Shown in pieces: positions 20,679 to 36,889 of a DNA stretch of 64,000 nt. The number at the start of each line of letters is the position of its first letter. The first letter of the stretch is position 1. The DNA is taken from the NCBI GenBank assembly GCA_049515895.1, contig JBEKTQ010000003.1, positions 1 through 64,000 on the forward strand, given 5' to 3'. This stretch comes from Candidatus Bathyarchaeia archaeon (GTDB taxonomy: Archaea; Thermoproteota; Bathyarchaeia; Bathyarchaeales; Bathycorpusculaceae). The position numbers were made by a program, and so were the translations under genes. The notes under the pieces were generated by a model that saw only the letters and a program-made list of their open reading frames with translations, did not search any database and had not been told where the DNA came from.

Positions 20679-21005
20679 ATGGAAAACATTTACGCAGCGA
20701 TGCTCCTTCACAAGGCAGGAAAAGAAATAAACGAAGATTCGGTTACAAACGTTCTCAAAGCTGCAGGAATCACTGTTGACGTAGTTCAAATCAAAGCGCT
20801 CGTCGCTTCTCTTAGCGAGGTAAACATTGATGAGGCGCTTAAAGCAGCACCGACCATGATGGCAGCCGCTCCAGTTGCAGCTCCAGCAGCAGGTGCAGAA
20901 GCTAAGCCAGCAGCCGCCGCTCCAGAAGACAAGAAGAAGAAAGCTGAAGAAGAGAAAGCCAAAGAAGAAGCAGCGTTAGAAGGATTAGGCGCCCTATTCG
21001 GGTAA
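20679..21005 (+). CDS. rpl12: 50S ribosomal stalk protein P1/L12
   Basis: [11 protein letters not shown].., Ala-rich hinge, [14 protein letters not shown]-terminus. Confidence 0.97.
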
Positions 21006-21007
21006 AT
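20995..21007. repeat. attL core (13-bp direct repeat)
   Basis: TATTCGGGTAAAT, identical to 36890-36902; spans the rpl12 stop codon. Confidence 0.85.
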
Positions 21008-21019
21008 ACGCCGTTAATG

Positions 21020-21048
21020 GGTGATTTATTCACCATAATTTATTTTTT
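21020..21048 (+). terminator. Element-supplied hairpin and T-tract after rpl12
   Basis: GGTGA-TTTAT-TCACC followed by ATTTATTTTTT. Confidence 0.45.
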
Positions 21049-21050
21049 GG

Positions 21051-21407
21051 TCAAGTCTTAGTTTCTATTCGTTGACTCTCTTTAATAGTCTCAATCATTT
21101 TTGGCAAAAAGTCTATGAACTGCTCTTTCTCCGCATAAATTGACTTTTCAACAGCCTCGATTAAATTATTAATCAAAAGCCTATAGGGCCTAGTAACATT
21201 CTGAAGTTTATACTCTGTTACCTCATGCGTGAAAGTCTGCCATGCCTCTATTTCTGAAGCATCATAAAGAAAAATCACGTTGCCCTTGATCTCTCCATGA
21301 TTAGCTTTTGCCTTATCCGGTTTCCAGAGAACAACCAGGTTAACACCTAAACGGCCTAGGCAATCTTGCATCTGTTTTTGAACCTTAGCGATTTCAGCTT
21401 TAATCAT
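21051..21407 (-). CDS. Hypothetical protein with zincin-like HExxE motif
   Basis: HGEIKGNVIFLY...TFTHEVTE. Confidence 0.6.
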   Translation of the reverse strand: MIKAEIAKVQKQMQDCLGRLGVNLVVLWKPDKAKANHGEIKGNVIFLYDASEIEAWQTFTHEVTEYKLQNVTRPYRLLINNLIEAVEKSIYAEKEQFIDFLPKMIETIKESQRIETKT

Positions 21408-21712
21408 GGCCTAAAACTCCTATGTTCTTTAGTTTTTGGGAAAGCAAAACTGCATGTTGCCTGAACGTTTCCACTTTTTGAGAATGTAACTCAAGCGCGC
21501 ATTGTTGGGCTAAAAAGAAACTACCGCACAAAGACTAAGCATCCCCTGGAAGCCTTCGGCTGCCAATCTCAAGGTTTGTTTTCCTTCGCCAAGTTCTGCA
21601 GGATATACCGCCGCCGTGAGTGCACGAATAATTATCCTTCTTAAATTTGCCTTCTAATTTGCATTGATAATCAAACTTGCAAGGGTATGTTTCGAGAGAG
21701 TTTCTTTGTATG

Positions 21713-21921
21713 TTACCACGATTACCACGTTTAACATACTCAGAATAAGACCCCCCTACCCCTCTTTTCCTTAGTATATTGATTTGAACATTGACCACTG
21801 CTAGTTTATTGACTGTTTTTAGGAGTTTACTGTTAATCATTATCGTAATCTCCTATACTTTTTTCCTTTTTAGCAGTAGGGGTATCGTTTCCAAGTGTGG
21901 TAAGCGTGGTAATCGTGGTAA
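21713..21921. other. Putative replication origin (inverted iterons around an AT-rich core)
   Basis: TTACCACGATTACCACG (21713-29) is the exact reverse complement of 21905-21; inner CCCCTAC/GTAGGGG pair. Confidence 0.6.
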
Positions 21922-24028
21922 AACCCTCAGTCACTTTGTAGGCTTCTATCAGTTTTGGTGTTGAGTAGTAGCCTTTTCCAGATTTTAATAGGCCTTCACT
22001 TTGTAGAACTGCCATTAATGGACGCATTTCATTGGTGTCTGTTAACTGAAACTTTGATGCTAAGACCTCTTTTGTTACCCTGTTTTGCGTTACTATCCAA
22101 TGTAGTATTTTTCCAAGTTTCTCGATTTCGATTTTGCCTTGTGTTTTGGAAAAGATTATCGCAAAAATTTCTTTAATGTCTTCCAGGGTCAATTTTTCAA
22201 ATTTGTTTTCTTGCGCTAAAATTCCTAAACCGGCTTTCATGTATTCTTCTGTTAAGAAGTTTACAACAGTTTCAACATGCTCTGTCGTTACTGTGACAAT
22301 AGTGTTATCATCGTTTGTTGATAAGGTGCTATAAGCCAATCCAACACTTAGTCTTGCAATTTTCCATTTTACATCAATACTTACTAATGGGATTTCTTCG
22401 CTGAAAAACGTGTTATAGAGCTCTGTTGACATATCTAAAAGCAAGGTTACGGCTGCCTCTTCCCATTGAACTTTAGCGGTATTACTCCAACACCACTTCA
22501 AAACTTCAGCCATATAATCCAGCTTTGGGTCGTATTCTTCAGTTACCTTAACATTAAGTTTCTCAGGTGCAACGTCACGTTGATCTGAAAAAACTGCTAC
22601 GTCTAACCTTGCTATGCTTGTTTTGTCTAATACTGTTGACCATGCTTGCGCCGGATGTAAAAAGGAACTTAGGCTTTTCGTACTATACTTATCATCTTCT
22701 GGGTCTACAGCATTGTAGATTCTGAGTTGCCTAGTTCTTGCGTATGTCGTATTTTTTGCTGCCTTCGCTATACTGAGAACTCCACTCCTTTCGGCTTCCG
22801 CCAAAGCGGCCCAACAAGAAGCATTAAGTTTTTGCGATCCATCAATAGCTAAAAGTTTGCGATCCATAAGTGGCAAGAAACCCCAATCGATGAACCAGCC
22901 TTCCTTTTCAACTTGCGTTGCTGTTCCAGTTAAGCCAACGGTGCTTGCGGTTTCGGCTGAAATTATGGACCCTGCCTTTAAGAGTTTGGCTTGTTTCTTA
23001 ACCGTTTCAGATTTAGCTGTGGTTGTGTCACCGATAATTCCGCATTTGCCCCAGCCCTCTTTTACTTCACCGTCCAACTTAACGTATAGCGGTGTGAAGT
23101 AAGTTAGGAATCCCGCAGTAGCTATGTTCTCTCTGCCAACAATATGACTGTATAACTCGAAGTTGTCTAATATCCAGTTTAGCCGGTCACTTACGCTTTT
23201 CCCCTTAAAAACTTCTTTGAGAGCTGCCAATTTTGAAACATCAAAACTTAATATATCCTCTGGGAATTCCACTTTGTAAGCTAGCAAAGTTGTTTTTTGG
23301 GTTTTTGGATTCGGTAATGGTAAACCAACAATCCGCATGAGAGTGCTCGGTTGAAAAGTTAACGGTACATCGGAAGCGACATAAATGTCTAAGGCCTTGT
23401 ACTCGTACCCTTTTTCATCGACAATCTTGTCACCGCATTTTTCCAAAGTAAAAACTGGTGGTCTTACTCTCAACCGGTACATAGTGCGATATTGTTGTAT
23501 TTCTTCGATAATGGCATGGAGCGGATAGAATAAACTTTTTAGTCGTATTGCTTGAGTTTCTTTTGAAACATCTACTAAACCAATGTTCACTGGGTTATCT
23601 ACATCAATTACTTTAAAAACTTCATAATTGTCGTCCTCAGTTTCACCTTTTATAAATGCCTTGATTCTTGAAGGCACACCAATGTAGGCTATGCTTGTGC
23701 TTGAGATAACAGCTTCAATAATAACAGGTTTACCAACTAAAGAGGGATTCTCAATGTTATTGATATGCTCTAAAACTGACGGTTGATTTTCCAATTCCTC
23801 TTCTCTTGTTTCGTCACAAGCCTTCTTAAATTGCAACCTAGCTTGGTATCGTGCCATTTTTTCTTTGTATTCATTCAAGGCAAACTCGAAGTTTTCAGGG
23901 TTGCTATAATCTTCTTTTTTTGGCGGTGTTGGTTCTTCCAACCAAGGCTCTTTTACAGTCGGTATGTCTGAAGTGATATTATCTCTTGGCGATTTTTCTG
24001 GGGTTGCTGTCTGCTCTGGATCTGTCAC
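21833..24028 (-). CDS. Divergent MCM-family AAA+ helicase
   Basis: Walker A GDTTTAKS, STVGLTG, Walker B-like LLAIDG, SIAKAA (PS1), SIARLD (Arg finger), C-terminal wHTH-like segment. Confidence 0.8.
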   Translation of the reverse strand: MTDPEQTATPEKSPRDNITSDIPTVKEPWLEEPTPPKKEDYSNPENFEFALNEYKEKMARYQARLQFKKACDETREEELENQPSVLEHINNIENPSLVGKPVIIEAVISSTSIAYIGVPSRIKAFIKGETEDDNYEVFKVIDVDNPVNIGLVDVSKETQAIRLKSLFYPLHAIIEEIQQYRTMYRLRVRPPVFTLEKCGDKIVDEKGYEYKALDIYVASDVPLTFQPSTLMRIVGLPLPNPKTQKTTLLAYKVEFPEDILSFDVSKLAALKEVFKGKSVSDRLNWILDNFELYSHIVGRENIATAGFLTYFTPLYVKLDGEVKEGWGKCGIIGDTTTAKSETVKKQAKLLKAGSIISAETASTVGLTGTATQVEKEGWFIDWGFLPLMDRKLLAIDGSQKLNASCWAALAEAERSGVLSIAKAAKNTTYARTRQLRIYNAVDPEDDKYSTKSLSSFLHPAQAWSTVLDKTSIARLDVAVFSDQRDVAPEKLNVKVTEEYDPKLDYMAEVLKWCWSNTAKVQWEEAAVTLLLDMSTELYNTFFSEEIPLVSIDVKWKIARLSVGLAYSTLSTNDDNTIVTVTTEHVETVVNFLTEEYMKAGLGILAQENKFEKLTLEDIKEIFAIIFSKTQGKIEIEKLGKILHWIVTQNRVTKEVLASKFQLTDTNEMRPLMAVLQSEGLLKSGKGYYSTPKLIEAYKVTEGFTTITTLTTLGNDTPTAKKEKSIGDYDND

Positions 24029-24288
24029 TGTGTTATAGCTCCAGGGTTCTTTTTGTTGTACTCTATGAGGTCAGCCGGAATCTGAATACGATTCTCCAAA
24101 ATGCTGTTACTGTGAATGTATAAGTCAACTTCTTCCACTTGTTTTTGCAAAAGGAGAGCAACTCTTGAAGCATTTGCAAATCCACCAAAAATACGAGGTA
24201 TTTCAGTGTTATTTGACAGGTAAATTACTACCACAGAACCATTGCCAAGAGAGCGCACAAGGTGGCCTACAACATAGTAATAGCCCAA
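24025..24288 (-). CDS. Hypothetical protein
   Basis: Tightly packed in the operon (4-nt overlap with the MCM-like gene). Confidence 0.55.
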   Translation of the reverse strand: MGYYYVVGHLVRSLGNGSVVVIYLSNNTEIPRIFGGFANASRVALLLQKQVEEVDLYIHSNSILENRIQIPADLIEYNKKNPGAITQ

Positions 24289-24292
24289 ATTG

Positions 24293-25159
24293 TCATTTCT
24301 CCTCTGTTTTTTCTAAAGCCTTAGAGAAACTCCACCGCGCTGCTGCCTGCAATTCTTTAATTTGTTGGTCCGAGAGTTTACCGATAACAAGAATGTAGTC
24401 AAGGTCTCCGTTTTCTTTCTTTGCAACACTATATGAAAAGCTGTACTTTGCAACCATAGGTTCTAAGACTTTTGGGATCAGAAAATTAGTGATTGTGGGG
24501 CCGTCTATTTTGAATGGATGCTCTGGACAAATACTTATCTCATCCTCGAAAACGTTCAACATGCCTATGGCTTTCAAGCCTTCGCATAACGGGAACTGCC
24601 GTAACCCTTCCATCTTCAGAGTATCTTTGACTATTGGCACATGAGGAATAGGCTGCTCTTTTTGAGGAGTTGGTGTAACGTTTTCAGGGATTTTGCTTTG
24701 TGTTTGTACTTGAGTTTTTTTGGTGCGGTAGTCATCAATCAAGGTTGCTAACCATTTCGCTGGAATCAGTTTTGCAAAAGCATTCCTTTCAGCTTTGTTA
24801 ACTGCTAATATGTACGCAAAGGGCTTTTCCTTTTCGACACTGCTCGCGCCGATAACATCAATGCGGTTCTGAAGATCACGCATTTTTATTGTTACTCGGA
24901 TTTCCTTGTCCGTTTCTTCAATGTGGACATCGAGGATTTCTACATTGCCTCTATGTCGAATTGCTTCTTTGACACCGGCATAAGACAAGTTAGTAACTCG
25001 TTTGCCTTGAATCGTAACATCATAAACAAGGTCTTCTAAGATTTCGCCGCGCATTTCAGCTAAGATTTGGTTTTCATCTCTATGGTCAAGAACTTGAAAG
25101 ATTTGGGTTCGGTCTTCAGTCTTTGCTTCAGTTTTTGTCTGTTGTTCTGTTTCAGCCAA
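24293..25159 (-). CDS. Putative Rad52/Sak-like single-strand annealing protein
   Basis: LSYAGVKE...beta strands...IGAS...LAVNKAERNAFAKLIP resembles the SSAP core; linker plus C-terminal domain. Confidence 0.45.
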   Translation of the reverse strand: MAETEQQTKTEAKTEDRTQIFQVLDHRDENQILAEMRGEILEDLVYDVTIQGKRVTNLSYAGVKEAIRHRGNVEILDVHIEETDKEIRVTIKMRDLQNRIDVIGASSVEKEKPFAYILAVNKAERNAFAKLIPAKWLATLIDDYRTKKTQVQTQSKIPENVTPTPQKEQPIPHVPIVKDTLKMEGLRQFPLCEGLKAIGMLNVFEDEISICPEHPFKIDGPTITNFLIPKVLEPMVAKYSFSYSVAKKENGDLDYILVIGKLSDQQIKELQAAARWSFSKALEKTEEK

Positions 25160-25162
25160 CTT

Positions 25163-25321
25163 CTAGGCACCTCCACTGTTATTCTGTTTTCCGCATCCTT
25201 GGCCACAGCTTTTGTTTCGCGCATTGGTAAAATAACCCAAATTACACTTTGAGTATTGGAAATGAACGCAATCAGCGCAGGACTCAGGTTTTTCGGGTTT
25301 CTTAGGAAGAAAACCGTTCAA
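25163..25321 (-). CDS. Small Cys-rich (Zn-finger-like) protein, not in ORF track
   Basis: (M)NGFLPKKPEKPESCADCVHFQYSKCNLGYFTNARNKSCGQGCGKQNNSGGA fills the operon gap. Confidence 0.5.
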   Translation of the reverse strand: MNGFLPKKPEKPESCADCVHFQYSKCNLGYFTNARNKSCGQGCGKQNNSGGA

Positions 25322-25344
25322 TGATACACCAAAACAAGGCAAGG

Positions 25345-25536
25345 CTAGGCCTCCTTTGTTTGGATGGTTATGTATTGGAAAAAAATGTCTTTTTCGTCAT
25401 TGTACATCTTTGGTGAAGTTGCTTCGCAGTTAAAAACAGTTTTTAGACAGTTGAAAACTTGGTCGATAATCGCCTTATTTTTTGAAGTTACTTTTACGGT
25501 TGTTTCAAAATTTGATCTGTCTTCTTCTATCACCAT
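25345..25536 (-). CDS. Small protein, paralog of 27731-28021
   Basis: VKVTSKNKAIIDQV..TSPKMYNDEKDIFFQY aligns with VKISSPDVNFLDQV..TSAKMFNSETKQFFEF. Confidence 0.65.
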   Translation of the reverse strand: MVIEEDRSNFETTVKVTSKNKAIIDQVFNCLKTVFNCEATSPKMYNDEKDIFFQYITIQTKEA

Positions 25537-25587
25537 ATACTATATCACTAATAGAAAAAAGGAAAAAAAAGAAATTCCAGTAGATAA

Positions 25588-27072
25588 TCACGGTTCTGGC
25601 TCTCTTTTAAGAAAACGTTGGATTGATGCTTCTATACTGCCGTTGTCTATAGCTTCTTGTAAACCGTTTTTTATGTCAAGTATTATTTGTTTTGTATCAA
25701 GTTGCTGTTTGAACGCATTGAGATTTTTCTTTTCTTTAACTGCTTGCACTAAACAACCTTGCGGAAAACCTAAATCATACTTTTCCCGCGTCCACTTCTC
25801 TTTTTTCTCATTGTACAGTATCCATAGAGCAGAGGTTAACAACTGACGGCTTGCTGTATATTGCCATTGTATTTCTTCTATTTGATCCTGATAGGGTTTT
25901 TCCATATTTTCTTTTTGTTGTTCTAAATCACTAAGTTGATCTTCCAGTTCAGCGATTTCGTCAGCTATCCCTTCTGTTTTCTTTTCCATTTCGGACTCAA
26001 TAGGGCTAACACGTTCACTATATTCGTCATAAGATAAGTATTCGGTAGGTAGCTCTTGCGGAACTGCTAAATCTTCTTCAGAGGTATCGCAATTATCAAT
26101 AGCATACATCAAAGATTGCAATGCTTCTTTAGGTGCATTATTCCATGCTGTAGTAACTATTTCGTTTATTCGGTCTACCTCCGAAAGATACTTTAAAAGT
26201 TCTGTAGCTACGATTTCCCTGATTTTGTCGTGTCCTTGTGGTTGTGCTGATATTGCTTCGATTTCTAGGCCATAAGCGCCTTCTATGCCATACTTGGCTA
26301 ACCACTTGTCACTGTTAAAGTCTATTCCCTCACAACTTAGTTTTCTGCCTCTTTTAATTGGATATTTTTGTACGTCTAAGATTTCTGGTGTAGCATGTTC
26401 AACGTTAACGCCTATTCTATAATGTTTGCTTACGGTTAATCCAAAGGTTTGGCACTTACTAACAAACTCCTGGTCTATAGCAAAACCAAAGGGATCATAG
26501 TCAGTCAACGAAAAAATAACCACTTCAGTTATACCTTTTTCCTGAAGCAGCCGTAACATGTGCTCAATACCTGCTCCTTTGCTCCAGCCACCACCGCTTA
26601 AGATATTGATGTTAAAGAGTTCTTGCAAAGGCAATAAATGAACATACACAGCGTCTTTTTCAACGAATAACAAAATGTTGCTCCAGCATTGCGCTTGATT
26701 CTGATTGACGTTATAAGTTTCTTTTAGCATGCGAAACTCATTTATGCCTAAATCCGCGTAAGCTAACCGTCCTTCCTTAACCATTTTCGCTAGAACTGCC
26801 TCAAAAGTCTTCATGTATTTTTCTGAGCGTTTGCGTTCAATCTTCAGCAATATTGGCTTAATTGGGTTATACCAAACCTCGCGGCAACCTCTTTGGTCAG
26901 ATAACGGATAATGCATGGCTTTAGTAGCTAAAATTACAGCTTCGATTAAACTGTTAAAATCAACCAAGTAACCTTTTCTTACCCATTGCGACATTTTTTG
27001 AGGGAAAGCTGCGATTAACTGCTCTGGAGTCATGGCTTGCAGTTGCATCAATGTATAGATATATTGGTTCAC
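25588..27072 (-). CDS. Spo11/Topo VI-A-like protein (5Y-CAP + TOPRIM) with C-terminal coiled coil
   Basis: REVWY (catalytic Tyr position), FVEKDAV, SGGGW, LTDYDPFG, LEIEAI. Confidence 0.75.
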   Translation of the reverse strand: MNQYIYTLMQLQAMTPEQLIAAFPQKMSQWVRKGYLVDFNSLIEAVILATKAMHYPLSDQRGCREVWYNPIKPILLKIERKRSEKYMKTFEAVLAKMVKEGRLAYADLGINEFRMLKETYNVNQNQAQCWSNILLFVEKDAVYVHLLPLQELFNINILSGGGWSKGAGIEHMLRLLQEKGITEVVIFSLTDYDPFGFAIDQEFVSKCQTFGLTVSKHYRIGVNVEHATPEILDVQKYPIKRGRKLSCEGIDFNSDKWLAKYGIEGAYGLEIEAISAQPQGHDKIREIVATELLKYLSEVDRINEIVTTAWNNAPKEALQSLMYAIDNCDTSEEDLAVPQELPTEYLSYDEYSERVSPIESEMEKKTEGIADEIAELEDQLSDLEQQKENMEKPYQDQIEEIQWQYTASRQLLTSALWILYNEKKEKWTREKYDLGFPQGCLVQAVKEKKNLNAFKQQLDTKQIILDIKNGLQEAIDNGSIEASIQRFLKREPEP

Positions 27073-27728
27073 GATAAAGCCCTCCGAATGGTTAGAAGGT
27101 CTTTTCTGTACGCTTCATGGAGTGTTTTTAAATCGGGTTTGCTTGATTGCTGGATTAGCTTGTAAACTTCCAGTTCTTCTATTGTTACGGCGTAACATTT
27201 TTGCGGTGTAGGTATAGGTTGCGGAATCGAATTTGATAGGATTCTTGCGTTAGCAAAAGTGATTTCTTTCCGCTCAAGTTTTGTCTGAGTTTCTTCAGGT
27301 AGTTTAAGCAATAAAAGGCGCTGTGTAACATAGGCTCTGCTTTTCTTAATGACCGCTGCTATTTCCTCATGCGTTTGCCCTTTTTCAATGCGCCTCTGAA
27401 ACTCTTTTGCTAACTCCATATCAGAGAGGTCGTTTCTTTCCAGATTCTCAATTAACTGCAGGTCTTTGGCCGTGGCTTCATCCATTTCCCTTACAATGCA
27501 CTTGATTGTCAATAGATGTGCTATGCGGTGAGCTCTAAAGCGTCTTTCACCATGAACAATAACATATTTGCCTTCACTCAGGGGTCTAACCTGAATCGGC
27601 TGCAATAACCCATGTTGCTTGATACTATCCGCTAACTCTTCTAACGCCTGCGAATCAAAATATTTCCGTGGCTGCTCTGAATCAGCGATTATGCATGTCA
27701 GTGGTAAGTCTAAAATTTGCTCGGTCAA
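27069..27728 (-). CDS. ParB/Spo0J-family protein
   Basis: QPRKYFD..ELADSIKQHGLLQPI..HGERRFRA..LIENLERNDL, HTH EEIAAVIKKSRAYVTQRL. Confidence 0.93.
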   Translation of the reverse strand: MTEQILDLPLTCIIADSEQPRKYFDSQALEELADSIKQHGLLQPIQVRPLSEGKYVIVHGERRFRAHRIAHLLTIKCIVREMDEATAKDLQLIENLERNDLSDMELAKEFQRRIEKGQTHEEIAAVIKKSRAYVTQRLLLLKLPEETQTKLERKEITFANARILSNSIPQPIPTPQKCYAVTIEELEVYKLIQQSSKPDLKTLHEAYRKDLLTIRRALS

Positions 27729-27730
27729 AG

Positions 27731-28021
27731 TTACTGAGCCTCCTTTAGTTTTGGTGCCACGCTGACGAACTCGAAAAACTGCTTGGTTTCAGAATTGAAC
27801 ATCTTGGCGCTTGTAGGTGCGACGGCGAAACCAATAGATAGGTAGGCTATGACTTGGTCGAGAAAGTTAACGTCTGGGCTGCTAATCTTGACGATTGTAG
27901 CGTTTGGAAATTTAGGTTTCAGTTTTTTTTCTTCTTTCGATAATTCAGTTGGGTTCTTACAAAAAACTCTAGGGTTTGAAATTTTGCTTACTGGGCTCGA
28001 TTCTAATTCTGTTTCTACCAA
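27731..28021 (-). CDS. Small protein, paralog of 25345-25536
   Basis: See paralog alignment; ends 2 nt before parB start. Confidence 0.65.
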   Translation of the reverse strand: MVETELESSPVSKISNPRVFCKNPTELSKEEKKLKPKFPNATIVKISSPDVNFLDQVIAYLSIGFAVAPTSAKMFNSETKQFFEFVSVAPKLKEAQ

Positions 28022-28446
28022 TGTGTTTTTACCTTATGGACCGCTCAAAGCGAGCGTATCCACAAGAAAAATATACTATATACGAAATCGTTAGCACATC
28101 TGCTAATTCGAACTGTTCGATAGGTAAAGATACCAGACTCTGGTGAACTTTACAAGCCGCTTGTGTGGGGGAAGATTATCAGACTCTGATGAGGTAAAAG
28201 GTTTATGAACAGTTAATAAAAATGCCTTTCTCGTTATACGAACCAATCTGCTGAAGCAGTTCAGCAGACTGTTAGTACTCAAGATACTATCGACTTCTTT
28301 CTCTTCATGTTTTTCTGCTTCTCTCGTAAATATGGTTATCAGAAAGTTTGGTCGCACATGAAACATGGCTGAATAGAAAAAACTGTTGGGCAACTAACTT
28401 TTCTAAAAGTGTGTTCAAGCTAAAAAATAAGAGAGGGGAAGGAATT

Positions 28447-28665
28447 TTAGTTGGCGCTTTTCAGCTCAAATAAGTAGCCTTTGCTTGTTTGTAGTGCTCG
28501 GATTTTGTCGTTCAATGACATTTTTAATAGAAGACCCCTGGCTGTTTGCCAAGTAATCTTCAAGTTGAACGCGACAAATCCGATGCTGACCGGCATCTTA
28601 CTGTTTTCCAACAGTTCTAAAGTCTTTTTCTCATTCTCTTCTGCGACCATTTTAAAACATTGCAT
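28447..28665 (-). CDS. Winged-helix DNA-binding protein
   Basis: PVSIGFVAFNLKITWQTARGLLLKM..KGYLF; GAGGTG SD before the Met at 28665. Confidence 0.65.
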   Translation of the reverse strand: MQCFKMVAEENEKKTLELLENSKMPVSIGFVAFNLKITWQTARGLLLKMSLNDKIRALQTSKGYLFELKSAN

Positions 28666-28703
28666 TTGTTTCACCTCTTTCCTCTCTATACGAAAAATGC
28701 CAA

Positions 28704-28772
28704 GAAGGCTAGAGCCATGACAAGGCAACTGTTGAGTTATTGAGCCAGTCCTTGCCACAGCTCCTAACCTTC
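28704..28772 (-). promoter_or_regulatory. Long G-U-rich RNA hairpin in operon leader
   Basis: GAAGGTTAG-GAGC-TGTGGCAAGG pairs with CCTTGTCATG-GCTC-TAGCCTTC on the minus strand. Confidence 0.45.
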
Positions 28773-28853
28773 AAGGTTCTTTTTCCCCTCTCCTCAATAG
28801 AAAAAAGAGTTAAGAGCAAATTTTACCATTCTTGTCAAAATGAAACTCTGGGT

Positions 28854-29234
28854 TTACGCTCTCTCTAATATTTGATAAACGAACTCTGGAACTTTCTCCT
28901 TAAGCATTAACTCACAGAACCTTATCGCTGTTCGCTTGTTACCGTCAGTGAAGGGATGCTGCTCTGCAACAACTAAAGCAATCTCCAAGGCGATCTTTGA
29001 TTCCAAGTTATCAAGGCAACCGTCATAGCGGATCGTGCCGGTTGAAAAGCCTTTGTTGATTTCTATTAACTTGTTTCTTATCTGCTCTGAAGTTAGGTCC
29101 ATAAGATTTCTTCCTCTACTTGAAAGGTGAAAGTTTTTCCAACCGTTGCTTCCCACCGCGCCGTCTTCCTGTAGGTCTTCTATGGTGTCGTTTTCTCTTG
29201 CCTTCGGAATTTTTCTCTTACTCTTTCTAGGCAT
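28854..29234 (-). CDS. Fic/Doc-family toxin
   Basis: HPFTDGNKRTA Doc-type motif. Confidence 0.85.
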   Translation of the reverse strand: MPRKSKRKIPKARENDTIEDLQEDGAVGSNGWKNFHLSSRGRNLMDLTSEQIRNKLIEINKGFSTGTIRYDGCLDNLESKIALEIALVVAEQHPFTDGNKRTAIRFCELMLKEKVPEFVYQILERA

Positions 29235-29245
29235 AGTGTTACGGC

Positions 29246-29392
29246 CTACTCCTTCTTTTTTGCTGCTTCTTGAAACTCTGTTAGGGCCAGCTCGACCAAG
29301 TGGCTTCTGTTTCGATACTTTTTGGTTTCAACCTGCTTGTCGATCCACTCAACTAGTTCCTTGTCTATTGTGACGCTAATCGATTGCTTCAT
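29246..29392 (-). CDS. Ribbon-helix-helix protein, probable antitoxin (not in ORF track)
   Basis: MKQSISVTIDKELVEWIDKQVETKKYRNRSHLVELALTEFQEAAKKKE. Confidence 0.85.
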   Translation of the reverse strand: MKQSISVTIDKELVEWIDKQVETKKYRNRSHLVELALTEFQEAAKKKE

Positions 29393-29505
29393 ACTTTGCA
29401 ATACATAATCAACTCCTTTAAATGCTTTATACGATAAAATATGTAATGCAAAGGCTTATATATTTTACCCTATAATAATAAGAATACACAAGGAGAAATA
29501 AGAAT

Positions 29506-29853
29506 ATGGAAAAAACAGAAACTTTTAAAATGTCACCTGAAGAAATTTTGGATACAATAGAAAACTTGCAACAATACCTCAAACCTTGTAAACATTGCCG
29601 ACATGGCATCAGATCAGAGAAACCCTACATAGCTATGACTAATGTTCCAATTCCGGACTCAGTGGACCTAAAGAAATTCAAAGAAGGCACCGCAGCGTAT
29701 CAAAAAGCGTTAGCTACAACCGCTTGTAGGACCTGCATTGCCATCCAGGCGCTCAGAAACTTGCCGAGAGATAAACAGTTGGCCTTTGCCAAAGAACCAA
29801 ACTCAGAACTACTTGCTGAAGGTCTAGGGAGAAATGAAGAATGTCTGAATTAG
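29506..29853 (+). CDS. Zn-binding hypothetical protein
   Basis: CKHC and CRTC pairs. Confidence 0.6.
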   Translation: MEKTETFKMSPEEILDTIENLQQYLKPCKHCRHGIRSEKPYIAMTNVPIPDSVDLKKFKEGTAAYQKALATTACRTCIAIQALRNLPRDKQLAFAKEPNSELLAEGLGRNEECLN

Positions 29854-29993
29854 AGCTGGAATCCGTGACCGTTAAAGTGCCAAAAAGCTTCCTCAAAACC
29901 GTAAAGGACTACATAGCAAGAACAGGATACTACAACGACTTAAACGAGTTTGTTATGGAATCGCTGAGAGAACGAATTCTGCAAACATTATGA
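29841..29993 (+). CDS. Ribbon-helix-helix protein (not in ORF track)
   Basis: MSELELESVTVKVPKSFLKTVKDYIARTGYYNDLNEFVMESLRERILQTL. Confidence 0.8.
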   Translation: MSELELESVTVKVPKSFLKTVKDYIARTGYYNDLNEFVMESLRERILQTL

Positions 29994-30232
29994 TCTTAAC
30001 CTTCTTTTTTTTTATTTTTTCTTTTGTAAGGGCGGCCAAGAGCCCGATAACTCAAAACTCATCTCATCATGCCCCTTGAACCAGGGCTACTACCTAGGGC
30101 TTCTTGGTTTTGTTTCGCCCTTTTTTCTCTGTTTTTCTTTTGTAGAGGAGTCGGGGGCTTTGTTGCATATCGCGATAGTTCAATTTTTTTCACTTCCCTC
30201 GGCTTCTCTATTTTTCTAGAGAGGTTTGAGAC

Positions 30233-30454
30233 TTGGTTAAGAAACAAAAGGCAAAAAGACCTGCTTTCATTCTTGTATCTTTGGTTCTGCTCGTAATAGG
30301 CGTAGCACTTCTATATGGCTCAATAACGCTGTTATCAATTAGTTCGGGGTCTTTGGCGATTGTTTTTTCCAGTGTACCTTTGCTTCGTATGCTGGAGTTT
30401 GATCTTGGTGCTGTATTTGTCTTCTCAGGATCGTTAGTTCTGAGTGTCGCCTAA
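30233..30454 (+). CDS. Small two-TM membrane protein
   Basis: Basic N-terminus plus two hydrophobic helices; GAGGT SD. Confidence 0.65.
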   Translation: MVKKQKAKRPAFILVSLVLLVIGVALLYGSITLLSISSGSLAIVFSSVPLLRMLEFDLGAVFVFSGSLVLSVA

Positions 30455-30466
30455 GAGGTTTCAAAA

Positions 30467-30994
30467 TTGAGCTATCGCGGTCAAAAAAAGGGCTCTTATG
30501 CTCCGTATAAGAAATCTCGTTTTTCATGGGTTAGGTCTAAAAAGGCAAAACCAAAAGAAAACATTACTGACATCAAAGACGATCCTGAGCCTCAATCATC
30601 TAAAGATGATTCAGAACCTCAAAAAGTTAGGGATGAACCAGAACCTCAAACAGTAGCTCCCGAAACTATCAGTTGGCAAAATAGACCCTTGGCTCCGGAC
30701 ATAAGGATTTTTCTTGTTAGACCAGAAACTCTAACAGTCACCGGTGCTAGAACGATTTTGCCTGTTGACCTAACCCTGCAAAAGGAACTTGGGTATCAAA
30801 TCGCACTTTTGGCTGAAAGCCAGCGGCTTAACATCGAAGCGCAATCGGGTGACGGCTCAGTAAAAAAGTATCGCATCCTAAAAATTAGCTCTCAGTTACC
30901 AACAGACAAAAATTTGTCTTTCAGCGATTATCCTCTTGTCGGAAACATAAAAAACAGTCTAGGGCCTCACGGTTACACGATTTTGCCTCAGTAA
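30467..30994 (+). CDS. Hypothetical protein with basic/acidic N-terminus
   Basis: MSYRGQKKGSY.., DDPEPQ repeats. Confidence 0.65.
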   Translation: MSYRGQKKGSYAPYKKSRFSWVRSKKAKPKENITDIKDDPEPQSSKDDSEPQKVRDEPEPQTVAPETISWQNRPLAPDIRIFLVRPETLTVTGARTILPVDLTLQKELGYQIALLAESQRLNIEAQSGDGSVKKYRILKISSQLPTDKNLSFSDYPLVGNIKNSLGPHGYTILPQ

Positions 30995-31018
30995 TCATTT
31001 TTCTATTGAGGTTAGAGA

Positions 31019-31189
31019 TTGTCTTATAAAGGCAACAAAAAAGGCAATTATGGCTACAATCAGCGACGCGGCGGCCAAAGTGGGTTTCATAGCTACGGCA
31101 AAAGCAAGAATCGAAATGACAATGAGAGTTTTGAAAATCAGTCTCAGGAGCCTGAGAACCAAGCTGAGAATCAAGAGACAGAAGAATGA
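31019..31189 (+). CDS. Microprotein paralogous to the N-terminus of 30467-30994 (not in ORF track)
   Basis: (M)SYKGNKKGNYGYNQRRGGQSGFHSYGKSKNRNDNESFENQSQEPENQAENQETEE; GAGGT SD. Confidence 0.6.
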   Translation: MSYKGNKKGNYGYNQRRGGQSGFHSYGKSKNRNDNESFENQSQEPENQAENQETEE

Positions 31190-31358
31190 TGCTAAGTTTT
31201 TAGCGTCTCAAATCCTTTTTTTCTCTTTTTTAATTTTTTTGCTTAGTGTGTCAATGTTCCTAGGGCTTGTTAGGGGTTCTGTGTATTTAACGTCACCTAC
31301 CTAAAAATTAGTTAATTCCTACCTTTTTGTGAAAAATCGTCACCTAAGTAAATTACTT

Positions 31359-31814
31359 CTATTTTGGCATATTCGGCAAACTGGGCATCGGTTGATTTTC
31401 CTTATCTTCTTTTTTCTTACTCAGATATAACCCGATTCCAAAGCTTACGCTAAAAACAGTAATAGCAACCCCGAAAGCCACAGGAACCAATCCGACAAAA
31501 TAAGCCAATATAGAAAAAGCAACACTTGCAAGACCTATAGCCCATGTTATCGTTTTTGCCTCAATTTTACTTCCAGCGTAAACATTTACTTGGGCTCCGT
31601 GAACCCCTGAACCGCTTGTCAGTTGAGTTGTTTGCATTTGCCAAATGAGGTTTTGATAGAGTTGGAGCAATTCTTTATGCCTTTCAACTAATTCGTCATA
31701 TCTGCCTCTTTGATAATCCTCACTTATCTCCGAGCTCATAGATGTTTTTCCCTCAAGTCTTATTCGTTTTGAAGGGCTATTTAAAACAACCGAACAACAA
31801 GTTACTACATCCAT
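31359..31814 (-). CDS. Coiled-coil + two-TM membrane protein
   Basis: Probable start at MSSEISED; two C-terminal TM helices. Confidence 0.6.
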   Translation of the reverse strand: MDVVTCCSVVLNSPSKRIRLEGKTSMSSEISEDYQRGRYDELVERHKELLQLYQNLIWQMQTTQLTSGSGVHGAQVNVYAGSKIEAKTITWAIGLASVAFSILAYFVGLVPVAFGVAITVFSVSFGIGLYLSKKKEDKENQPMPSLPNMPK

Positions 31815-31964
31815 CTAGGGTTGTGCGGAAGAGCTATTTTTTGAAAACTGCAAGTTTTCTATGATTAATGCCTTTTACCGTTAGCCGAAGCTTCTATGCA
31901 AGCTTTTGTTAACATGACAAAACTTAAAACCTCTTAGATATAATGAAAAGAGGGGTTACTTGTC

Positions 31965-33050
31965 ATGATTCATGTTGGATTTGATAGCGCACCAATAAGG
32001 AAAGTACCTGTTCTTCCAGATGGTAAAAAAGGTTCAGAGTTTGTTGCTAACTTGGGTGTCTCAGTTTCCGTTGCTGATAAAGAAAGGTTTGAGGTTGCAT
32101 ATGATATTGCAATTGAACATGCATTCAAAAAAATTGGGGCAACACGGAAAAAGAGGTTTTATAAAGGCGCTCATTTAGTCGGCCAAGTTTCTGAACATGC
32201 ACCTCAAGTTATAGCTATGATGCTTAACGAATTAGCCCCCGAGATTTTGCATGTAGATGTATATTGTGCATATTATTCACAAGAATACATTTCTCTCTAT
32301 GGACAAAGTGAACCACAACAACTCTCACCTCCAGTCTTTGTAAAGAAGACACAAGGCGCTTTCCCACATGTGTGTGCTTGGTGGTATGTCTCTAAATATG
32401 AGCAAACAGAAAATCCACTTACACTTGAAATAGATTCAATGCAAACCGCTACTACTCCAGCATGGCGAAAATTGTCTAGTATCCCAGAGAAAAGCATCAA
32501 AATAGAATTTTACTTCGGTGGTGACGAATGTAACCCAATTATTTCATTAGCAGATTTGATTCTTAAGCTAATTAGAATCTTTCACAGGGGAACAGTTGAA
32601 GGGCGCTCTCTGCTTGAACCATTATACGATAGATGCACAAGTTACTGTTCTCAAAGAAAAGTCTGGTTTCACAATTTAGGATCAAGAGGCTTTATTTTAA
32701 AAGCAACAGCCCCAGATTTAGATATTCAAGCGAATACAAAACAATTCATCAAACATCCTCTCACATTCTATTATGCAACAAATAAACCCATGGAAGGCAA
32801 AGATGAAATTGCAAACGCCCTATATTTATCTCCGATTTACAACGCAATTGCTTACAATGTTTCTTGCGTTAAAGGTGGCATGAAGAAGTTTTCACCTACA
32901 GAAGACATACACATATGGAATCCTGAACTCGATAGCATTGTTCCCTTCACAAAGGAAGATAAAGAGCAATTAAAACGACTTGAAACCTACGGGTACACTC
33001 TGCCCCAACTGAAGGAACCGAAGGACTTGATTAAGTCCTCTAAATTCTAA
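31965..33050 (+). CDS. Hypothetical protein, possible RNase H-like (DUF3800-like) fold
   Basis: N-terminal VGFD, mid EIDS, GDECNPIISLADLI. Confidence 0.5.
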   Translation: MIHVGFDSAPIRKVPVLPDGKKGSEFVANLGVSVSVADKERFEVAYDIAIEHAFKKIGATRKKRFYKGAHLVGQVSEHAPQVIAMMLNELAPEILHVDVYCAYYSQEYISLYGQSEPQQLSPPVFVKKTQGAFPHVCAWWYVSKYEQTENPLTLEIDSMQTATTPAWRKLSSIPEKSIKIEFYFGGDECNPIISLADLILKLIRIFHRGTVEGRSLLEPLYDRCTSYCSQRKVWFHNLGSRGFILKATAPDLDIQANTKQFIKHPLTFYYATNKPMEGKDEIANALYLSPIYNAIAYNVSCVKGGMKKFSPTEDIHIWNPELDSIVPFTKEDKEQLKRLETYGYTLPQLKEPKDLIKSSKF

Positions 33051-33813
33051 ATCTAAAGTAGTAAGACGCACATTCCGCGTACAAGAGCTACCCTTTGGTC
33101 TTAGGGTGCCCATTATGTCCATGCACATAAGTTGTATATAAAACTTAGTCCGAAACAGTATGGAGACACAATCTGAACAGCAAAGCAATAAGTCAATGTT
33201 TTCTTTTTTCGTGTGAGGAGCTGGGAGCGATTTGCAACAATCCATTTCTTGACTCAATTAAATTATTACCTCGCTCTCAGCTTCTCTTTATGCTTATGAA
33301 CGGCATTGAGGTTTCTCAACTCATTTACCCTACTCTAAACACTCACAATAGTTAAGACGCTATCGCTCTATATGCTATAGTCAGAACAGCTTTATCCTTT
33401 AGGTCATGGCAATTTATCATCAAGCTTCACGCCTAGAAGGTTTTTTTGTTTTTAAAAAACTGAAAACGGTAACGCACGTTACATTTTCCTCTTATCCTCG
33501 TTTAACATTATTTAACCGCTAAAACCCTCTATTTACCATATATAAAAGGTGTACGTACGGGTTGCGTAACGCAGCGCCCATGCAAAATTAGTCTTTTACT
33601 AGCGCTAAAATATTTGTATTGTGTTTCAGGTAGGGTAATGACATAAAAGAGCTTTGTAACGCACATATAAAGGAGTCCATGCTTGAGCGTTACCTTTTAG
33701 GCTTTAGGCTTGGCTTTCAGGTGTCAGTTTGGGGTTTTGCATGGTAAAAGTCCATGATTAAAACGTGAAGAAATAATGTTAAGGAAACATGTAGAAAAAT
33801 GGTGTTAGAAAGT

Positions 33814-35225: not shown

Positions 35226-35296
35226 ACTTAGTCGCCAATAGAAAAATAACGGAATATGGTTAGTCTCAGGTTAGGATTTTCAGGTTTTCGTTAGTT

Positions 35297-35527: not shown

Positions 35528-35528
35528 T

Positions 35529-36824: not shown

Positions 36825-36889
36825 TTTTATCCCTGAATATGCTTACGCATAAGTTCTATTTATAGTTAATCACCCTTTAGCGTAGGGCT

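What the first reader, a model, noticed from the sequence alone, without database searches (positions are those of the whole stretch)
25588..27728. ParB clamp coupled to a Spo11/Topo VI-A-like protein, with no ParA and no Topo VI-B: best candidate new system
Seen: parB (GERR CTP-binding motif, HTH) overlaps by 4 nt a 494-aa gene with REVWY, VEKD, GGGW, TDYDPFG and EIEAI plus a ~60-aa coiled coil; no ParA, GHKL ATPase or SMC was recognised in the element. Established: these motifs match the catalytic Tyr and TOPRIM of Top6A/Spo11; B-less 'Mini-A' homologs exist on mobile elements; Wadjet JetD is a related TOPRIM nuclease; ParB is a CTP-dependent sliding clamp. Inference: ParB may load or license a tyrosine transesterase in place of a B subunit, for decatenating or resolving the circle, initiating recombination, or cutting competing DNA that lacks the parS-like site.
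Basis: partly seen in the sequence, partly recalled or inferred. Interest (0 to 1): 0.85.

Follow-up and report, generated by a model that had tools for sequence, protein, structure and literature searches.

The report
ParB coupled to long Mini-A topoisomerase-like protein
A mobile element in a peat archaeon carries a DNA-clamp gene (ParB, with its own binding-site-like palindrome inside the gene) fused in expression to a stand-alone relative of the DNA-cutting subunit of topoisomerase VI/Spo11, and this pairing recurs in related elements, giving a first concrete partner and DNA site for a protein family whose job is unknown.

Summary
Window 27069-27728(-) is a canonical ParB (ParB_N 1.8e-27, HTH_ParB 5.5e-14, GERR box). 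Its stop overlaps by 4 nt the GTG start of a 494-aa protein (25588-27072).

The 494-aa protein is a remote Top6A/Spo11-type protein:
- the only significant PDB fold match is the M. mazei Topo VI A subunit;
- hhalign places its Toprim E138 and D191/D193 on host Top6A E197 and D249/D251;
- Y68 is invariant in 97 of 97 relatives.

It fits the published, functionally unsolved "Mini-A" group best. It is a long form, with a uS19-like N-terminal motif and a 200-aa helical C-terminal domain that has no structural match.

No ParA-type or GHKL ATPase lies in the ~15.9-kb integrated element.

New here:
- ParB lies upstream in 14 of 17 assessable close homologues and in 0 of 6 distant ones.
- The NTGA start/stop overlap is kept in 13 of 14 junctions.
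- A 13-bp palindrome (GTTACGNCGTAAC) inside parB is kept in 13 of 13 loci, at synonymous sites too.

So this is a conserved ParB-parS-Mini-A cassette of Bathyarchaeia mobile elements. Whether ParB replaces a B subunit is untested. The scan noted a ParB/Mini-A adjacency once before, in a phage on other DNA. I class it as a new variant of a known kind, of moderately high interest.

The parts
27069..27728 (-). parB: 219-aa canonical ParB/Spo0J-type protein (ParB_N with QPR, GERRFRA and ENxxRxDLS boxes, HTH_ParB, and a short conserved C-terminal tail ...AYRKDLxTxRRAL)
   Evidence: Pfam ParB_N 1.8e-27 and HTH_ParB 5.5e-14. TIGR00180 2.1e-43. Boxes invariant in 12 aligned ParBs.
27184..27196 (.). 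13-bp palindrome GTTACG-N-CGTAAC (15 bp with the outer T/A in the window), inside the parB linker codons and ~110 bp upstream of the Mini-A-like start; candidate parS-like ParB site
   Evidence: Unique in the 64-kb window. Present with at most 1 mismatch at the same codons in 13 of 13 main-clade ParB loci. It is the best-conserved 15-nt stretch of the parB codon alignment, 0.972 against a next best of 0.883. Of the 5 codons fixed in all 12 ParBs, 3 lie in it.
27080..27085 (-). GGAGGG Shine-Dalgarno-like hexamer inside the last ParB codons, 8-13 nt before the GTG start of the next gene; with the GTGA overlap it indicates translational coupling
   Evidence: Junction contexts of 14 loci: 13 have (A/G)TGA overlaps, most preceded by GGAGG(G).
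26917..27072 (-). Mini-A-like protein, residues 1-52: small helical N-terminal motif that resembles the N-terminal extension of archaeal ribosomal protein uS19
   Evidence: A1 profile against PDB sequences: 4v4n_BT S19P E 9.5e-4, residues 5-52. Borderline.
26683..26916 (-). Mini-A-like protein, residues 53-130: 5Y-CAP-like part with R64-E-V-W-Y68 (candidate catalytic Tyr)
   Evidence: Y68 invariant and R64/W67 in 90% or more of 97 relatives. The motif form Rxx(Y/F)Y is described for Top6A and Mini-A in PMC7671362. The Foldseek alignment to the Topo VI A chain spans 334 columns. hhalign did not align this part.
26203..26682 (-). Mini-A-like protein, residues 131-290: Toprim domain (E138, D191-x-D193-x-x-G196) and the GLEIEAI box (T2BI-like)
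   Evidence: hhalign A2 against host Top6A: probability 94.6, E 7.2e-8, E138 on E197 and D191/D193 on D249/D251. phrog_6247 E 5.3e-7. 15 of 97 relatives hit PF21180.
25588..26202 (-). Mini-A-like protein, residues 291-494 plus stop: subfamily-specific all-helical C-terminal domain with long paired helices (coiled-coil-like)
   Evidence: AF2 on 18 sequences: pLDDT 86.6, pTM 0.79. No PDB fold match, best E 0.86. No Atlas lead.
21833..24028 (-). MCM-like helicase of the same operon direction (context: replication module)
   Evidence: Pfam MCM 8.8e-14. MCM also lies downstream of the homologue in L011, L013 and L015.
35529..36824 (-). Tyrosine integrase of the element (context)
   Evidence: Pfam Phage_integrase 7.7e-8. 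An integrase cluster is present in 7 loci.
20995..36902 (.). ~15.9-kb integrated element bounded by the direct repeat TATTCGGGTAAAT (20995-21007 at the 3' end of the ribosomal stalk protein P1/L12 gene, and 36890-36902)
   Evidence: Repeat D13. Sequences and the rpl12 ORF 20679-21005. The homologue is absent from 40 of 40 other same-genus genomes searched.

Best explanation
This is a conserved two-gene maintenance cassette of Bathyarchaeia integrative elements.

ParB is a CTP-clamp-type protein with all its boxes intact. It recognises the conserved 13-bp palindrome that lies inside its own gene and loads onto the element's DNA. The co-translated partner is a long-form Mini-A, that is, a stand-alone Top6A/Spo11-type protein with a Tyr and a Toprim domain. 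It has no ATPase subunit and no evident sequence-specific DNA-binding domain of its own. I infer that ParB gives it its address, so that it acts in cis on ParB-marked DNA.

My pick for the step it performs is breaking and rejoining DNA to unlink or resolve the replicated circular copies of the excised element, so that they can separate without a ParA motor. The helical C-terminal domain would hold the two catalytic protomers together.

Shown: the identities of both proteins, the conservation of the catalytic residues, the conserved adjacency and start/stop overlap, DNA-level selection on the palindrome, and the absence of ParA and GHKL.

Inferred: ParB binding to the palindrome, a physical ParB-Mini-A partnership, DNA cleavage, and the unlinking role.
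For: 1. ParB is canonical: ParB_N 1.8e-27 and HTH_ParB 5.5e-14. The QPR, GERR and ENxxRxDLS boxes are invariant in 12 of 12 aligned ParBs.

2. The partner is Top6A-type. The only significant PDB fold hit is the Topo VI A subunit. The Toprim catalytic E and DxD align to host Top6A. Y68, E138 and D191 are invariant in 97 of 97 relatives.

3. The pairing is conserved. ParB lies upstream on the same strand in 14 of 17 assessable homologues of 41% identity or more (1 inconclusive, 2 without). This includes a second ParB architecture (L017, L020). The flanking genes differ between loci: MCM in 4, another 514-570-aa protein in 3, integrase in 7 at varying places.

4. An (A/G)TGA overlap with an internal GGAGG is present at 13 of 14 junctions.

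5. The palindrome is kept in 13 of 13 main-clade loci. The overlapped amino acids vary (C/G/S at one position, A/T/G at another) while the bases stay. It is the most conserved 15-nt stretch of parB, and 3 of the 5 codons fixed in all 12 sequences lie in it. The L017/L020 clade carries a different palindrome at the matching place, with compensating changes in the two arms.

6. No ParA-type or GHKL hit lies inside the element. The host has its own Top6A and B genes elsewhere.

7. Distant relatives carry an N-terminal LytTR DNA-binding domain: 2 above and 3 below the Pfam cut-off among the 10 scanned. This fits a catalytic core that needs a DNA-targeting module.

8. The cassette sits in the replication region, next to an MCM gene and an inverted-repeat cluster at 21713-21921.
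Against: - No experiment or contact prediction links the two proteins.
- The loci are relatives, so conserved adjacency is partly inheritance.
- 2 of 17 close homologues (L013, L018) and 6 of 6 distant ones (L003, L004, L026, L027, L029, L030) have no ParB upstream in the DNA held.
- No ParB-Mini-A fusion was found among 97 relatives or in the 'longer' search (weak evidence).
- The CAP/Tyr region is tied to Top6A only by motif and by the Foldseek alignment (TM 0.31/0.40). hhalign and the PDB profile search did not align it.
- A type IIB A subunit without an ATPase is not known to pass strands (my own knowledge).
- An element that integrates may not need a segregation device.
- The palindrome lies inside parB, so tracking ParB is partly trivial. 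It could instead be the Mini-A target or an operator.
Confidence: 0.4

Rival explanations
1. Replication initiation. The Mini-A-like protein nicks or cuts the element at or near the palindrome to start replication, either rolling-circle or break/recombination-dependent. The downstream MCM helicase is then loaded there. ParB acts as the origin-specifying accessory factor.
For: Mini-A was proposed as the replication initiator of skuldviruses, which lack other replication genes (bioRxiv 10.1101/2021.07.29.453957, passages seen; repeated in 10.64898/2026.02.13.705702). The gene lies in one operon direction with MCM, and MCM follows the homologue in L011, L013 and L015. The palindrome sits ~110 bp upstream of the gene, as nick sites often do for Tyr-transesterase initiators (my own knowledge). 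A relative of the neighbouring 288-aa protein lies beside a distant homologue in L030 (E 4.5e-4).
Against: A separate inverted-repeat, iteron-like cluster next to the MCM 3' end (21713-21921) is a better origin candidate. ParB proteins are not known as initiator specificity factors (my own knowledge). The palindrome is of ParB-operator type and tracks the ParB clade. L013 keeps Mini-A and MCM but shows neither ParB nor the palindrome in its 4450 bases.
Confidence: 0.25
2. No partnership. ParB is a KorB-like autoregulator, silencer or partition remnant that binds its intragenic operator. The Mini-A-like protein works on its own, and the two genes are neighbours by descent in one family of elements.
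For: The pairing is absent in 8 of 23 assessable loci, including all 6 distant homologues. Published Mini-A genes are described without any ParB; the word occurs 0 times in PMC7671362. All positive loci are related elements.
Against: The NTGA overlap is kept in 13 of 14 junctions, across ParBs of 54-64% identity to the window's and one ParB clade with another C-terminal architecture, while the genes on either side change. Only L002 has a gene inserted between the pair, and there the Mini-A-like N-terminal part is replaced.
Confidence: 0.2
3. Exclusion or defence nuclease. ParB marks 'self' DNA that carries the palindrome, and the Toprim/Tyr protein cuts competing circular DNA that lacks it, in a Wadjet-like logic.
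For: Toprim/CAP nucleases such as JetD work in plasmid restriction (my own knowledge). A Fic/DOC-domain gene lies 1.1 kb upstream (28854-29234, Pfam 4.2e-5). ParB_N gives weak hits to two PADLOC candidate-system models (E 1.2e-4 and 6.9e-3).
Against: The 494-aa protein has no PADLOC hit. No JetD or other nuclease structure appears among the Foldseek hits. There is no SMC-like or other ATPase in the element. The cassette sits in the replication module, not in a defence island. An invariant Tyr argues for transesterification, not plain hydrolysis.
Confidence: 0.07

Closest known systems
Topo Mini-A, the stand-alone type IIB topoisomerase A-subunit homologues of viruses and integrated elements (Takahashi et al., NAR Genom Bioinform 2019/2020, PMC7671362; passages seen)
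   Same: [quoted passage not shown] The function is unknown in both.
   Different: It is 494 aa against the ~300 aa quoted for Mini-A. It carries an extra N-terminal uS19-like motif and a 200-aa helical C-terminal domain with no structural match. Its motif is RxxWY, and its box reads GLEIEAI where Mini-A has xWELDAL. It is translationally coupled to a canonical ParB with an intragenic palindrome, which the paper does not mention. No capsid genes were recognised in the element. No known Mini-A sequence was compared directly here.
Topoisomerase VI A subunit (Top6A) / Spo11
   Same: Same fold by Foldseek (9o8p_A). The Toprim catalytic residues align. The Tyr motif has the same form as the host's RDVYY.
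   Different: It lacks the TP6A_N Pfam domain, scores below the Pfam Toprim cut-off, and has no Top6B/GHKL partner. The host keeps its own Top6A/B elsewhere.
ParB/Spo0J-parS CTP-dependent clamps, including KorB of RK2, whose operator I recall as a 13-bp palindrome with a central G/C (recalled, from no call)
   Same: Same domain set and CTP-box residues. A short palindromic site lies within or near the par genes.
   Different: There is no ParA/IncC partner in the element. The C-terminal region is short (~50 aa). The downstream, co-translated partner is a Top6A-type protein, which is not among the ParB partners I know of (ParA, SMC, KorA, MipZ; recalled).
Atabeyarchaeia (Asgard) plasmid with 'mini-topoisomerase VI', a ParB-like NTPase, primase-helicase and integrase (Genome Res 2024, PMC11529989; passages seen)
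   Same: An archaeal mobile element that encodes both a Mini-A-type protein and a ParB-like NTPase together with replication and integration genes.
   Different: That paper lists them as separate genes of one plasmid. The passages seen make no statement of adjacency, coupling or a shared site. I could not see its supplements or compare sequences.

Membership tests
ParB/Spo0J (CTP-clamp type) | ParB N-terminal domain with the GERRxRA box | tested here: met
   PF02195 E 1.8e-27, positions 2-94 of 95. G60-E-R-R63 invariant in 12 of 12.
ParB/Spo0J (CTP-clamp type) | ParB helix-turn-helix DNA-binding domain | tested here: met
   PF17762 E 5.5e-14.
ParB/Spo0J (CTP-clamp type) | Cognate palindromic parS-type site | tested here: inconclusive
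   A 13-bp palindrome under DNA-level selection lies inside parB in 13 of 13 loci. Binding was not tested.
ParB/Spo0J (CTP-clamp type) | ParA-type ATPase partner in the same locus | tested here: not met
   No AAA_31 hit within C3 20995-36902; the nearest is at C3 136 kb. Pfam scans of the element's ORFs found none.
ParB/Spo0J (CTP-clamp type) | CTP binding, hydrolysis and clamp closure | not testable with these tools
   Only the conserved box residues can be read.
Topo Mini-A | 5Y-CAP (second half) plus Toprim fold, homologous to type IIB A subunits | tested here: met
   Foldseek 9o8p_A E 6.2e-4, prob 1.00, 334 columns. hhalign Toprim probability 94.6. phrog_6247 E 5.3e-7.
Topo Mini-A | Conserved catalytic Tyr in an R-x-x-(Y/F)-Y motif | tested here: met
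   R64-E-V-W-Y68. Y68 in 97 of 97 relatives; R64 and W67 in 90% or more. The aromatic residue is W, not Y/F.
Topo Mini-A | Toprim E followed by DxDxxG | tested here: met
   E138, D191 and G196 invariant, D193 in 90% or more, of 97.
Topo Mini-A | T2BI box of the form xWELDAL | tested here: inconclusive
   GLEIEAI at 268-274, with G268 and E270 in 90% or more. It has the same pattern of acidic and hydrophobic positions, but L replaces W and E replaces D.
Topo Mini-A | Short length (~300 aa) | tested here: not met
   494 aa. Close homologues are 479-575 aa.
Topo Mini-A | No B (GHKL) subunit encoded nearby | tested here: met
   No HATPase_c hit in the element.
Topo Mini-A | Groups with published Mini-A sequences in a tree, apart from Topo VI and Topo VIII | not tested
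tblastn against the phage and plasmid collections gave nothing.
Topoisomerase VI A subunit / Spo11 | TP6A_N (PF04406) domain and PF21180 above the cut-off | tested here: not met
   No TP6A_N hit. PF21180 scores 16.7 bits against a cut-off of 24.1.
Topoisomerase VI A subunit / Spo11 | Adjacent Top6B (GHKL plus transducer) gene | tested here: not met
   The host pair lies on contig C10.
Wadjet JetD | Match to JetD models and neighbouring JetABC genes | tested here: not met
   PADLOC gives 0 families for the 494-aa protein. There are no SMC-like neighbours in the Pfam scans.

The most novel reading that the evidence does not exclude
ParB is the missing 'B subunit'. Its CTP-dependent N-terminal gate would replace the ATP-dependent GHKL gate of Top6B, and the helical C-terminal domain of the long Mini-A would supply a second dimer gate. 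Together, ParB-parS-Mini-A would be a site-loaded, CTP-gated type II topoisomerase-like machine (or a licensed double-strand-break maker), a nucleotide-gating solution not known for any topoisomerase.
Probability: 0.08. Interest if true: 0.95.

Novelty: new variant of a known kind. Interest (0 to 1): 0.62.

Why it matters
Mini-A proteins were described in 2019 and are spread over phages, archaeal viruses and integrated elements. They still have no known activity, partner or DNA target, and their authors asked explicitly what replaces the B subunit (PMC7671362).

This subfamily offers three concrete handles: a conserved co-translated partner of well-understood biochemistry (ParB), a defined 13-bp DNA site, and clear catalytic residues to mutate. 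That makes in-vitro reconstitution practical.

For the ParB field, it would add a DNA-breaking enzyme to the short list of clients of the CTP clamp. It would also give an example of a ParA-less ParB module on an archaeal mobile element.

If the two proteins turn out to be independent, the finding is still a new long-form branch of Mini-A, together with an intragenic parS under unusually clear DNA-level selection.

Tried and rejected
Complex prediction: ParB (A4) with the 494-aa protein (A1) returned 'no answer', score 0.00 against a mark of 0.32. I count it neither for nor against binding.

I therefore could not examine the neighbourhoods of most of the 52 close and 174 representative homologues. 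The survey rests on 31 loci from the search for related loci and on the genome search.

Searches that found nothing for the 494-aa protein:
- Viral contigs: no relative.
- tblastn against the phage and plasmid collections: no match.
- phmmer and the A1 profile against PDB sequences: no Top6A hit.
- BFVD fold search: nothing significant.
- 'longer' homologue search for fused forms: none, which is weak evidence.
- Source names for 10 relatives: none informative.

C-terminal domain: no Atlas lead and no PDB fold match.

Neighbouring proteins with no PHROG or Pfam family: the 288-aa, 87-aa, 96-aa and 63-aa proteins, and the 514-679-aa proteins downstream in L001, L002 and L010. I therefore could not test the 'annealase' reading of the 288-aa protein made in another note.

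Expression: no RNA holder is listed for the cassette. Only contigs could be laid, so nothing can be said about expression.

JetD/Wadjet membership: considered and rejected.

RNA hairpin reading of the palindrome: considered. In most loci only a 5-bp stem with a 3-nt loop could form, so I judge a DNA site more likely. I did not fold it.

Literature: 'mini-A' with 'ParB' gave 4 unrelated papers. 'Topo mini-A' gave 2 papers. Bathyarchaea/MGE/MCM/ParB gave 128 papers, of which 15 were listed and one read in passages. None of the passages read describes a ParB-Mini-A operon.
Full report
**What is there**

One search lists two overlapping ORFs on the minus strand. One is 27069-27728 (219 aa). The other is 25588-27072 (494 aa, GTG start). 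With the stop codon they share 4 nt (GTGA).

The 219-aa protein is a canonical ParB:
- Pfam ParB_N E 1.8e-27 and HTH_ParB E 5.5e-14.
- NCBIfam TIGR00180 E 2.1e-43.
- In an alignment of 12 ParBs from homologous loci, the QPR, GERR and ENxxRxDLS boxes are invariant. The box names are recalled.

**What the 494-aa protein is**

Sequence searches alone barely see it:
- Pfam TOP6A-Spo11_Toprim scores 16.7 bits against a cut-off of 24.1.
- phmmer and a family profile find no PDB Top6A.
- PADLOC finds nothing.
- PHROGs gives phrog_6247 'DNA topoisomerase', E 5.3e-7.

I collected 52 close homologues, all unnamed, and 174 cluster representatives at E up to 1e-3 among 1.84 billion proteins.

Structure and profile evidence:
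- An AlphaFold2 model built on 39 sequences is confident (pLDDT 86.4).
- Its only significant PDB neighbour is the A subunit of M. mazei topoisomerase VI (9o8p_A, E 6.2e-4, prob 1.00, 334 aligned columns, TM 0.31/0.40).
- A profile of 97 diverse relatives aligns to the host's own Top6A over the Toprim core (hhalign probability 94.6, E 7.2e-8). This puts E138 on E197 and D191/D193 on D249/D251.
- Across those 97 relatives, Y68, E138, G162, D191 and G196 are invariant. R64, W67, K139, D193, G268 and E270 are kept in 90% or more.
- 15 of the 97 reach E up to 1e-3 on PF21180. None hits TP6A_N.

The R64-E-V-W-Y68 motif has the R-x-x-aromatic-Y form that the Mini-A paper describes for Topo VI and Mini-A (PMC7671362, passages seen). 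The host Top6A reads RDVYY at that place. However, the CAP region is tied to Top6A only by this motif and by the Foldseek alignment. hhalign did not align it.

The protein also carries parts that the published Mini-A lacks:
- Residues 1-52 resemble the N-terminal extension of archaeal uS19 (E 9.5e-4; borderline).
- Residues ~291-494 fold confidently into long paired helices plus a small helical bundle (pLDDT 86.6, pTM 0.79). This domain has no PDB match (best E 0.86) and no Atlas lead.

**Setting**

- The cassette lies in a ~15.9-kb element bounded by the 13-nt direct repeat TATTCGGGTAAAT. One copy is at the 3' end of the ribosomal stalk protein P1/L12 gene (20995). The other is just beyond a tyrosine integrase (36890).
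- The gene order on the minus strand is 96-aa ORF, parB, Mini-A-like, 63-aa ORF, 288-aa ORF, 87-aa ORF, MCM-like helicase.
- The genome is a Bathyarchaeia MAG, judged from the titles of the nearest genome records.
- It has its own Top6A, with a GHKL gene beside it, on another contig.
- Six-frame searches find no ParA-type (AAA_31) or GHKL (HATPase_c) match inside the element.
- The family profile matches 4 of 401 Bathyarchaeia genomes, this one included, and 0 of 40 other genomes of the same genus. This fits a sporadic mobile element.

**Is the pairing conserved?**

I fetched 31 loci that encode relatives: 4 from genome contigs and 27 from metagenome contigs.
- I dropped L005 because it is the same element as the window (99.8-100% identity).
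- Seven loci have less than 250 bp upstream of the match and cannot be judged (L008, L016, L022, L024, L025, L028, L031).
- Of the 23 left, 14 have a ParB upstream on the same strand:
  - 11 directly adjacent by tblastn (L001, L006, L007, L009, L010, L011, L012, L014, L015, L019, L023);
  - L017 and L020, which are contig-cut ORFs with HTH_ParB at 3.3e-9 and 7.8e-10;
  - L002, where a NurA-like gene lies between the pair and the Mini-A-like N-terminal part is replaced.
- L021 is inconclusive. Its upstream 246-aa ORF shares only the ParB C-terminal tail (HMM E 0.018 in a small database; no Pfam hit).
- Eight have no ParB (L003, L004, L013, L018, L026, L027, L029, L030).

Split by identity to the query:
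- homologues of 41% or more: 14 of 17 with ParB, 1 inconclusive, 2 without;
- more distant homologues: 0 of 6.

Further points:
- At 13 of 14 junctions examined (window included), the ParB stop and the next start form an ATGA or GTGA overlap, mostly preceded by GGAGG(G) inside the last ParB codons. L020 has a 2-nt spacer.
- The genes around the pair vary: MCM in 4 loci, another 514-570-aa protein in 3, integrase in 7 at different places.
- L017 and L020 carry a ParB with a different C-terminal part.
- These loci are relatives, so the counts overstate independence. Even so, the pair is kept while its surroundings change.

**A conserved DNA site**

Another first-reader note pointed to a palindrome inside parB (e1-6368534). 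I tested it.

- GTTACG-N-CGTAAC occurs once in the 64-kb window, at 27184.
- It occurs at the same codons in 13 of 13 main-clade ParB loci, window included: 9 exact and 4 with one mismatch.
- In the ~249 kb of loci held, the only match outside a parB gene was a single one-mismatch match, in L038.
- In the codon alignment, the first overlapped amino acid varies (Cys/Gly/Ser) while its last two bases stay GT. The central codon varies (Ala/Thr/Gly). The Tyr, Val and Thr codons are TAC, GTA and ACA in 12 of 12.
- Of the 64 columns where the amino acid is invariant and the codon is free to vary, only 5 use one codon in all 12 sequences. Three of those 5 lie in the palindrome.
- The palindrome is also the most conserved 15-nt stretch of the whole gene (0.972, next best 0.883).
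- The L017/L020 ParB clade has different 18-22-nt palindromes at the corresponding place. They differ from each other by matching changes in both arms.

This is selection on DNA, not on protein. A ParB operator or parS-type site is the simplest reading. Binding is untested, and the site could also be the target of the neighbouring enzyme.

**How it most likely works**

Shown here:
- a CTP-box-intact ParB;
- a Top6A-type Tyr/Toprim protein without an ATPase partner;
- conserved translational coupling;
- a conserved intragenic palindrome;
- no ParA;
- a replication-module setting.

Inferred: ParB loads at the palindrome and gives the Mini-A-like enzyme its address on the element. The enzyme then breaks and rejoins DNA in cis.

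The idea that the catalytic core needs a targeting module gets some support from distant relatives. Of 10 N-terminally extended relatives scanned, 2 carry an N-terminal LytTR DNA-binding domain above the Pfam cut-off and 3 below it. In the earlier scan, 4 of 97 relatives had LytTR at E up to 1e-3.

My pick for the step is unlinking or resolving replicated circles at segregation (confidence about 0.4 for the whole statement). The rivals are replication initiation (0.25), no real partnership (0.2) and an exclusion nuclease (0.07). I cannot separate the first two with sequence data.

**Comparison with what is known**

- The protein works like, and most probably belongs to, the Mini-A branch of type IIB A subunits. 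It fails the 'short' criterion, its T2BI-like box differs, and I could not place it in a tree with named Mini-A sequences.
- It is not a Top6A orthologue and not JetD.
- ParB is a regular family member that lacks its usual ParA partner.
- In print I found Mini-A without any mention of ParB. One Asgard plasmid lists both a 'mini-topoisomerase VI' and a ParB-like NTPase among its genes, with no link drawn in the passages seen. Searches gave nothing closer. Supplements were closed.
- This scan had noted a phage Mini-A beside an orphan ParB before and judged that pairing not conserved (e1-5973693; not checked by me). It had also noted a 'long-form' Mini-A branch (e1-3945083).

**Verdict**

The cassette is a new variant of a known kind: a ParB-coupled, long-form Mini-A with an intragenic parS-like site. 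Its interest is that it turns the open question of what Mini-A does, and with what partner, into a defined experiment. The bold reading, that ParB acts as a CTP-driven substitute for the B subunit, is not excluded but has no direct support.

Noticed in passing
window 25345-25536(-) and 27731-28021(-); 25535-25545 and 28071-28081: The 63-aa and 96-aa ORFs that bracket the cassette are paralogues (36% identity over 50 aa, E about 1e-6). Each is preceded by the same 11-nt near-palindrome ATATAGTATAT. It has 2 sites in the window, each matching on both strands (4 matches, against 0.35 expected), and may be a shared promoter or operator. The ORF just upstream of the homologue in L018 looks similar by eye.
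   Followed up: partly
window 26917-27072(-), residues 1-52 of the 494-aa protein: The family's N-terminal ~50 residues align to the N-terminal extension of archaeal ribosomal protein uS19 (PDB 4v4n_BT, E 9.5e-4). This may be a small nucleic-acid-binding helical motif borrowed from, or shared with, a ribosomal protein.
   Followed up: no
window 20995-21007 and 36890-36902; read laying: The element sits at the 3' end of the P1/L12 stalk protein gene. In coded run X1, 3 contigs that reach 36890 from the right carry 10-12 loose letters equal to the rpl12 tail. Contig depth over rpl12 is about 4 times that of the element. Both hint at element-free (empty attB) genomes in the same sample. This is weak: contigs only, and very short overhangs.
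   Followed up: partly
L003 9686-11146 and L004 (Haladaptatus chromosomes): Distant homologues (31-32% identity over residues 58-325; PF21180 24.4 bits, just above the cut-off) lie a few kb from the ribosomal L10/P0 gene, after a TctA transporter gene and without ParB. I did not examine whether they sit in an element integrated near the same stalk-protein operon.
   Followed up: no
L002 8635-9639 and 9563-11188: In one Bathyarchaeota MAG, a weak NurA-like ORF (Pfam E 6.4e-4, below the cut-off) is inserted between parB and the Mini-A-like gene. That gene's CAP/Tyr region is replaced by unrelated sequence. It is either a decayed copy or a remodelled one.
   Followed up: partly
L017 2-652 and L020 1-678: The ParBs paired with the 568-aa Mini-A-like clade end in a ~45-residue segment that looks like an AbrB/SpoVT-type swapped-hairpin by eye (not tested). 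They carry their own palindromes, with compensatory arm changes between the two loci.
   Followed up: partly
window 21713-21745 and 21889-21921: A 33-nt inverted repeat (85% complementary) made of TTACCACG-type units straddles the 3' end of the MCM gene (repeat I2). It is a better origin candidate than the parB palindrome.
   Followed up: no
window 24293-25159(-); L030 643-1548: The 288-aa ORF between the cassette and MCM has no Pfam or PHROG family. A weak relative (E 4.5e-4) lies just upstream of a distant Mini-A-like gene in L030. This suggests a second recurring neighbour of the family. The annealase idea in another note could not be tested.
   Followed up: partly
window 28854-29234(-): A 126-aa ORF with a Fic/DOC domain (E 4.2e-5, 24.8 bits against a cut-off of 24.0) lies in the element upstream of the cassette. 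It may be the toxin part of an addiction module.
   Followed up: no
distant relatives P0159, P0192 (also P0143, P0167, P0191): A branch of the wider Mini-A-like family carries an N-terminal LytTR DNA-binding domain fused to the CAP-Toprim core. The Mini-A passages I read do not mention this architecture.
   Followed up: partly
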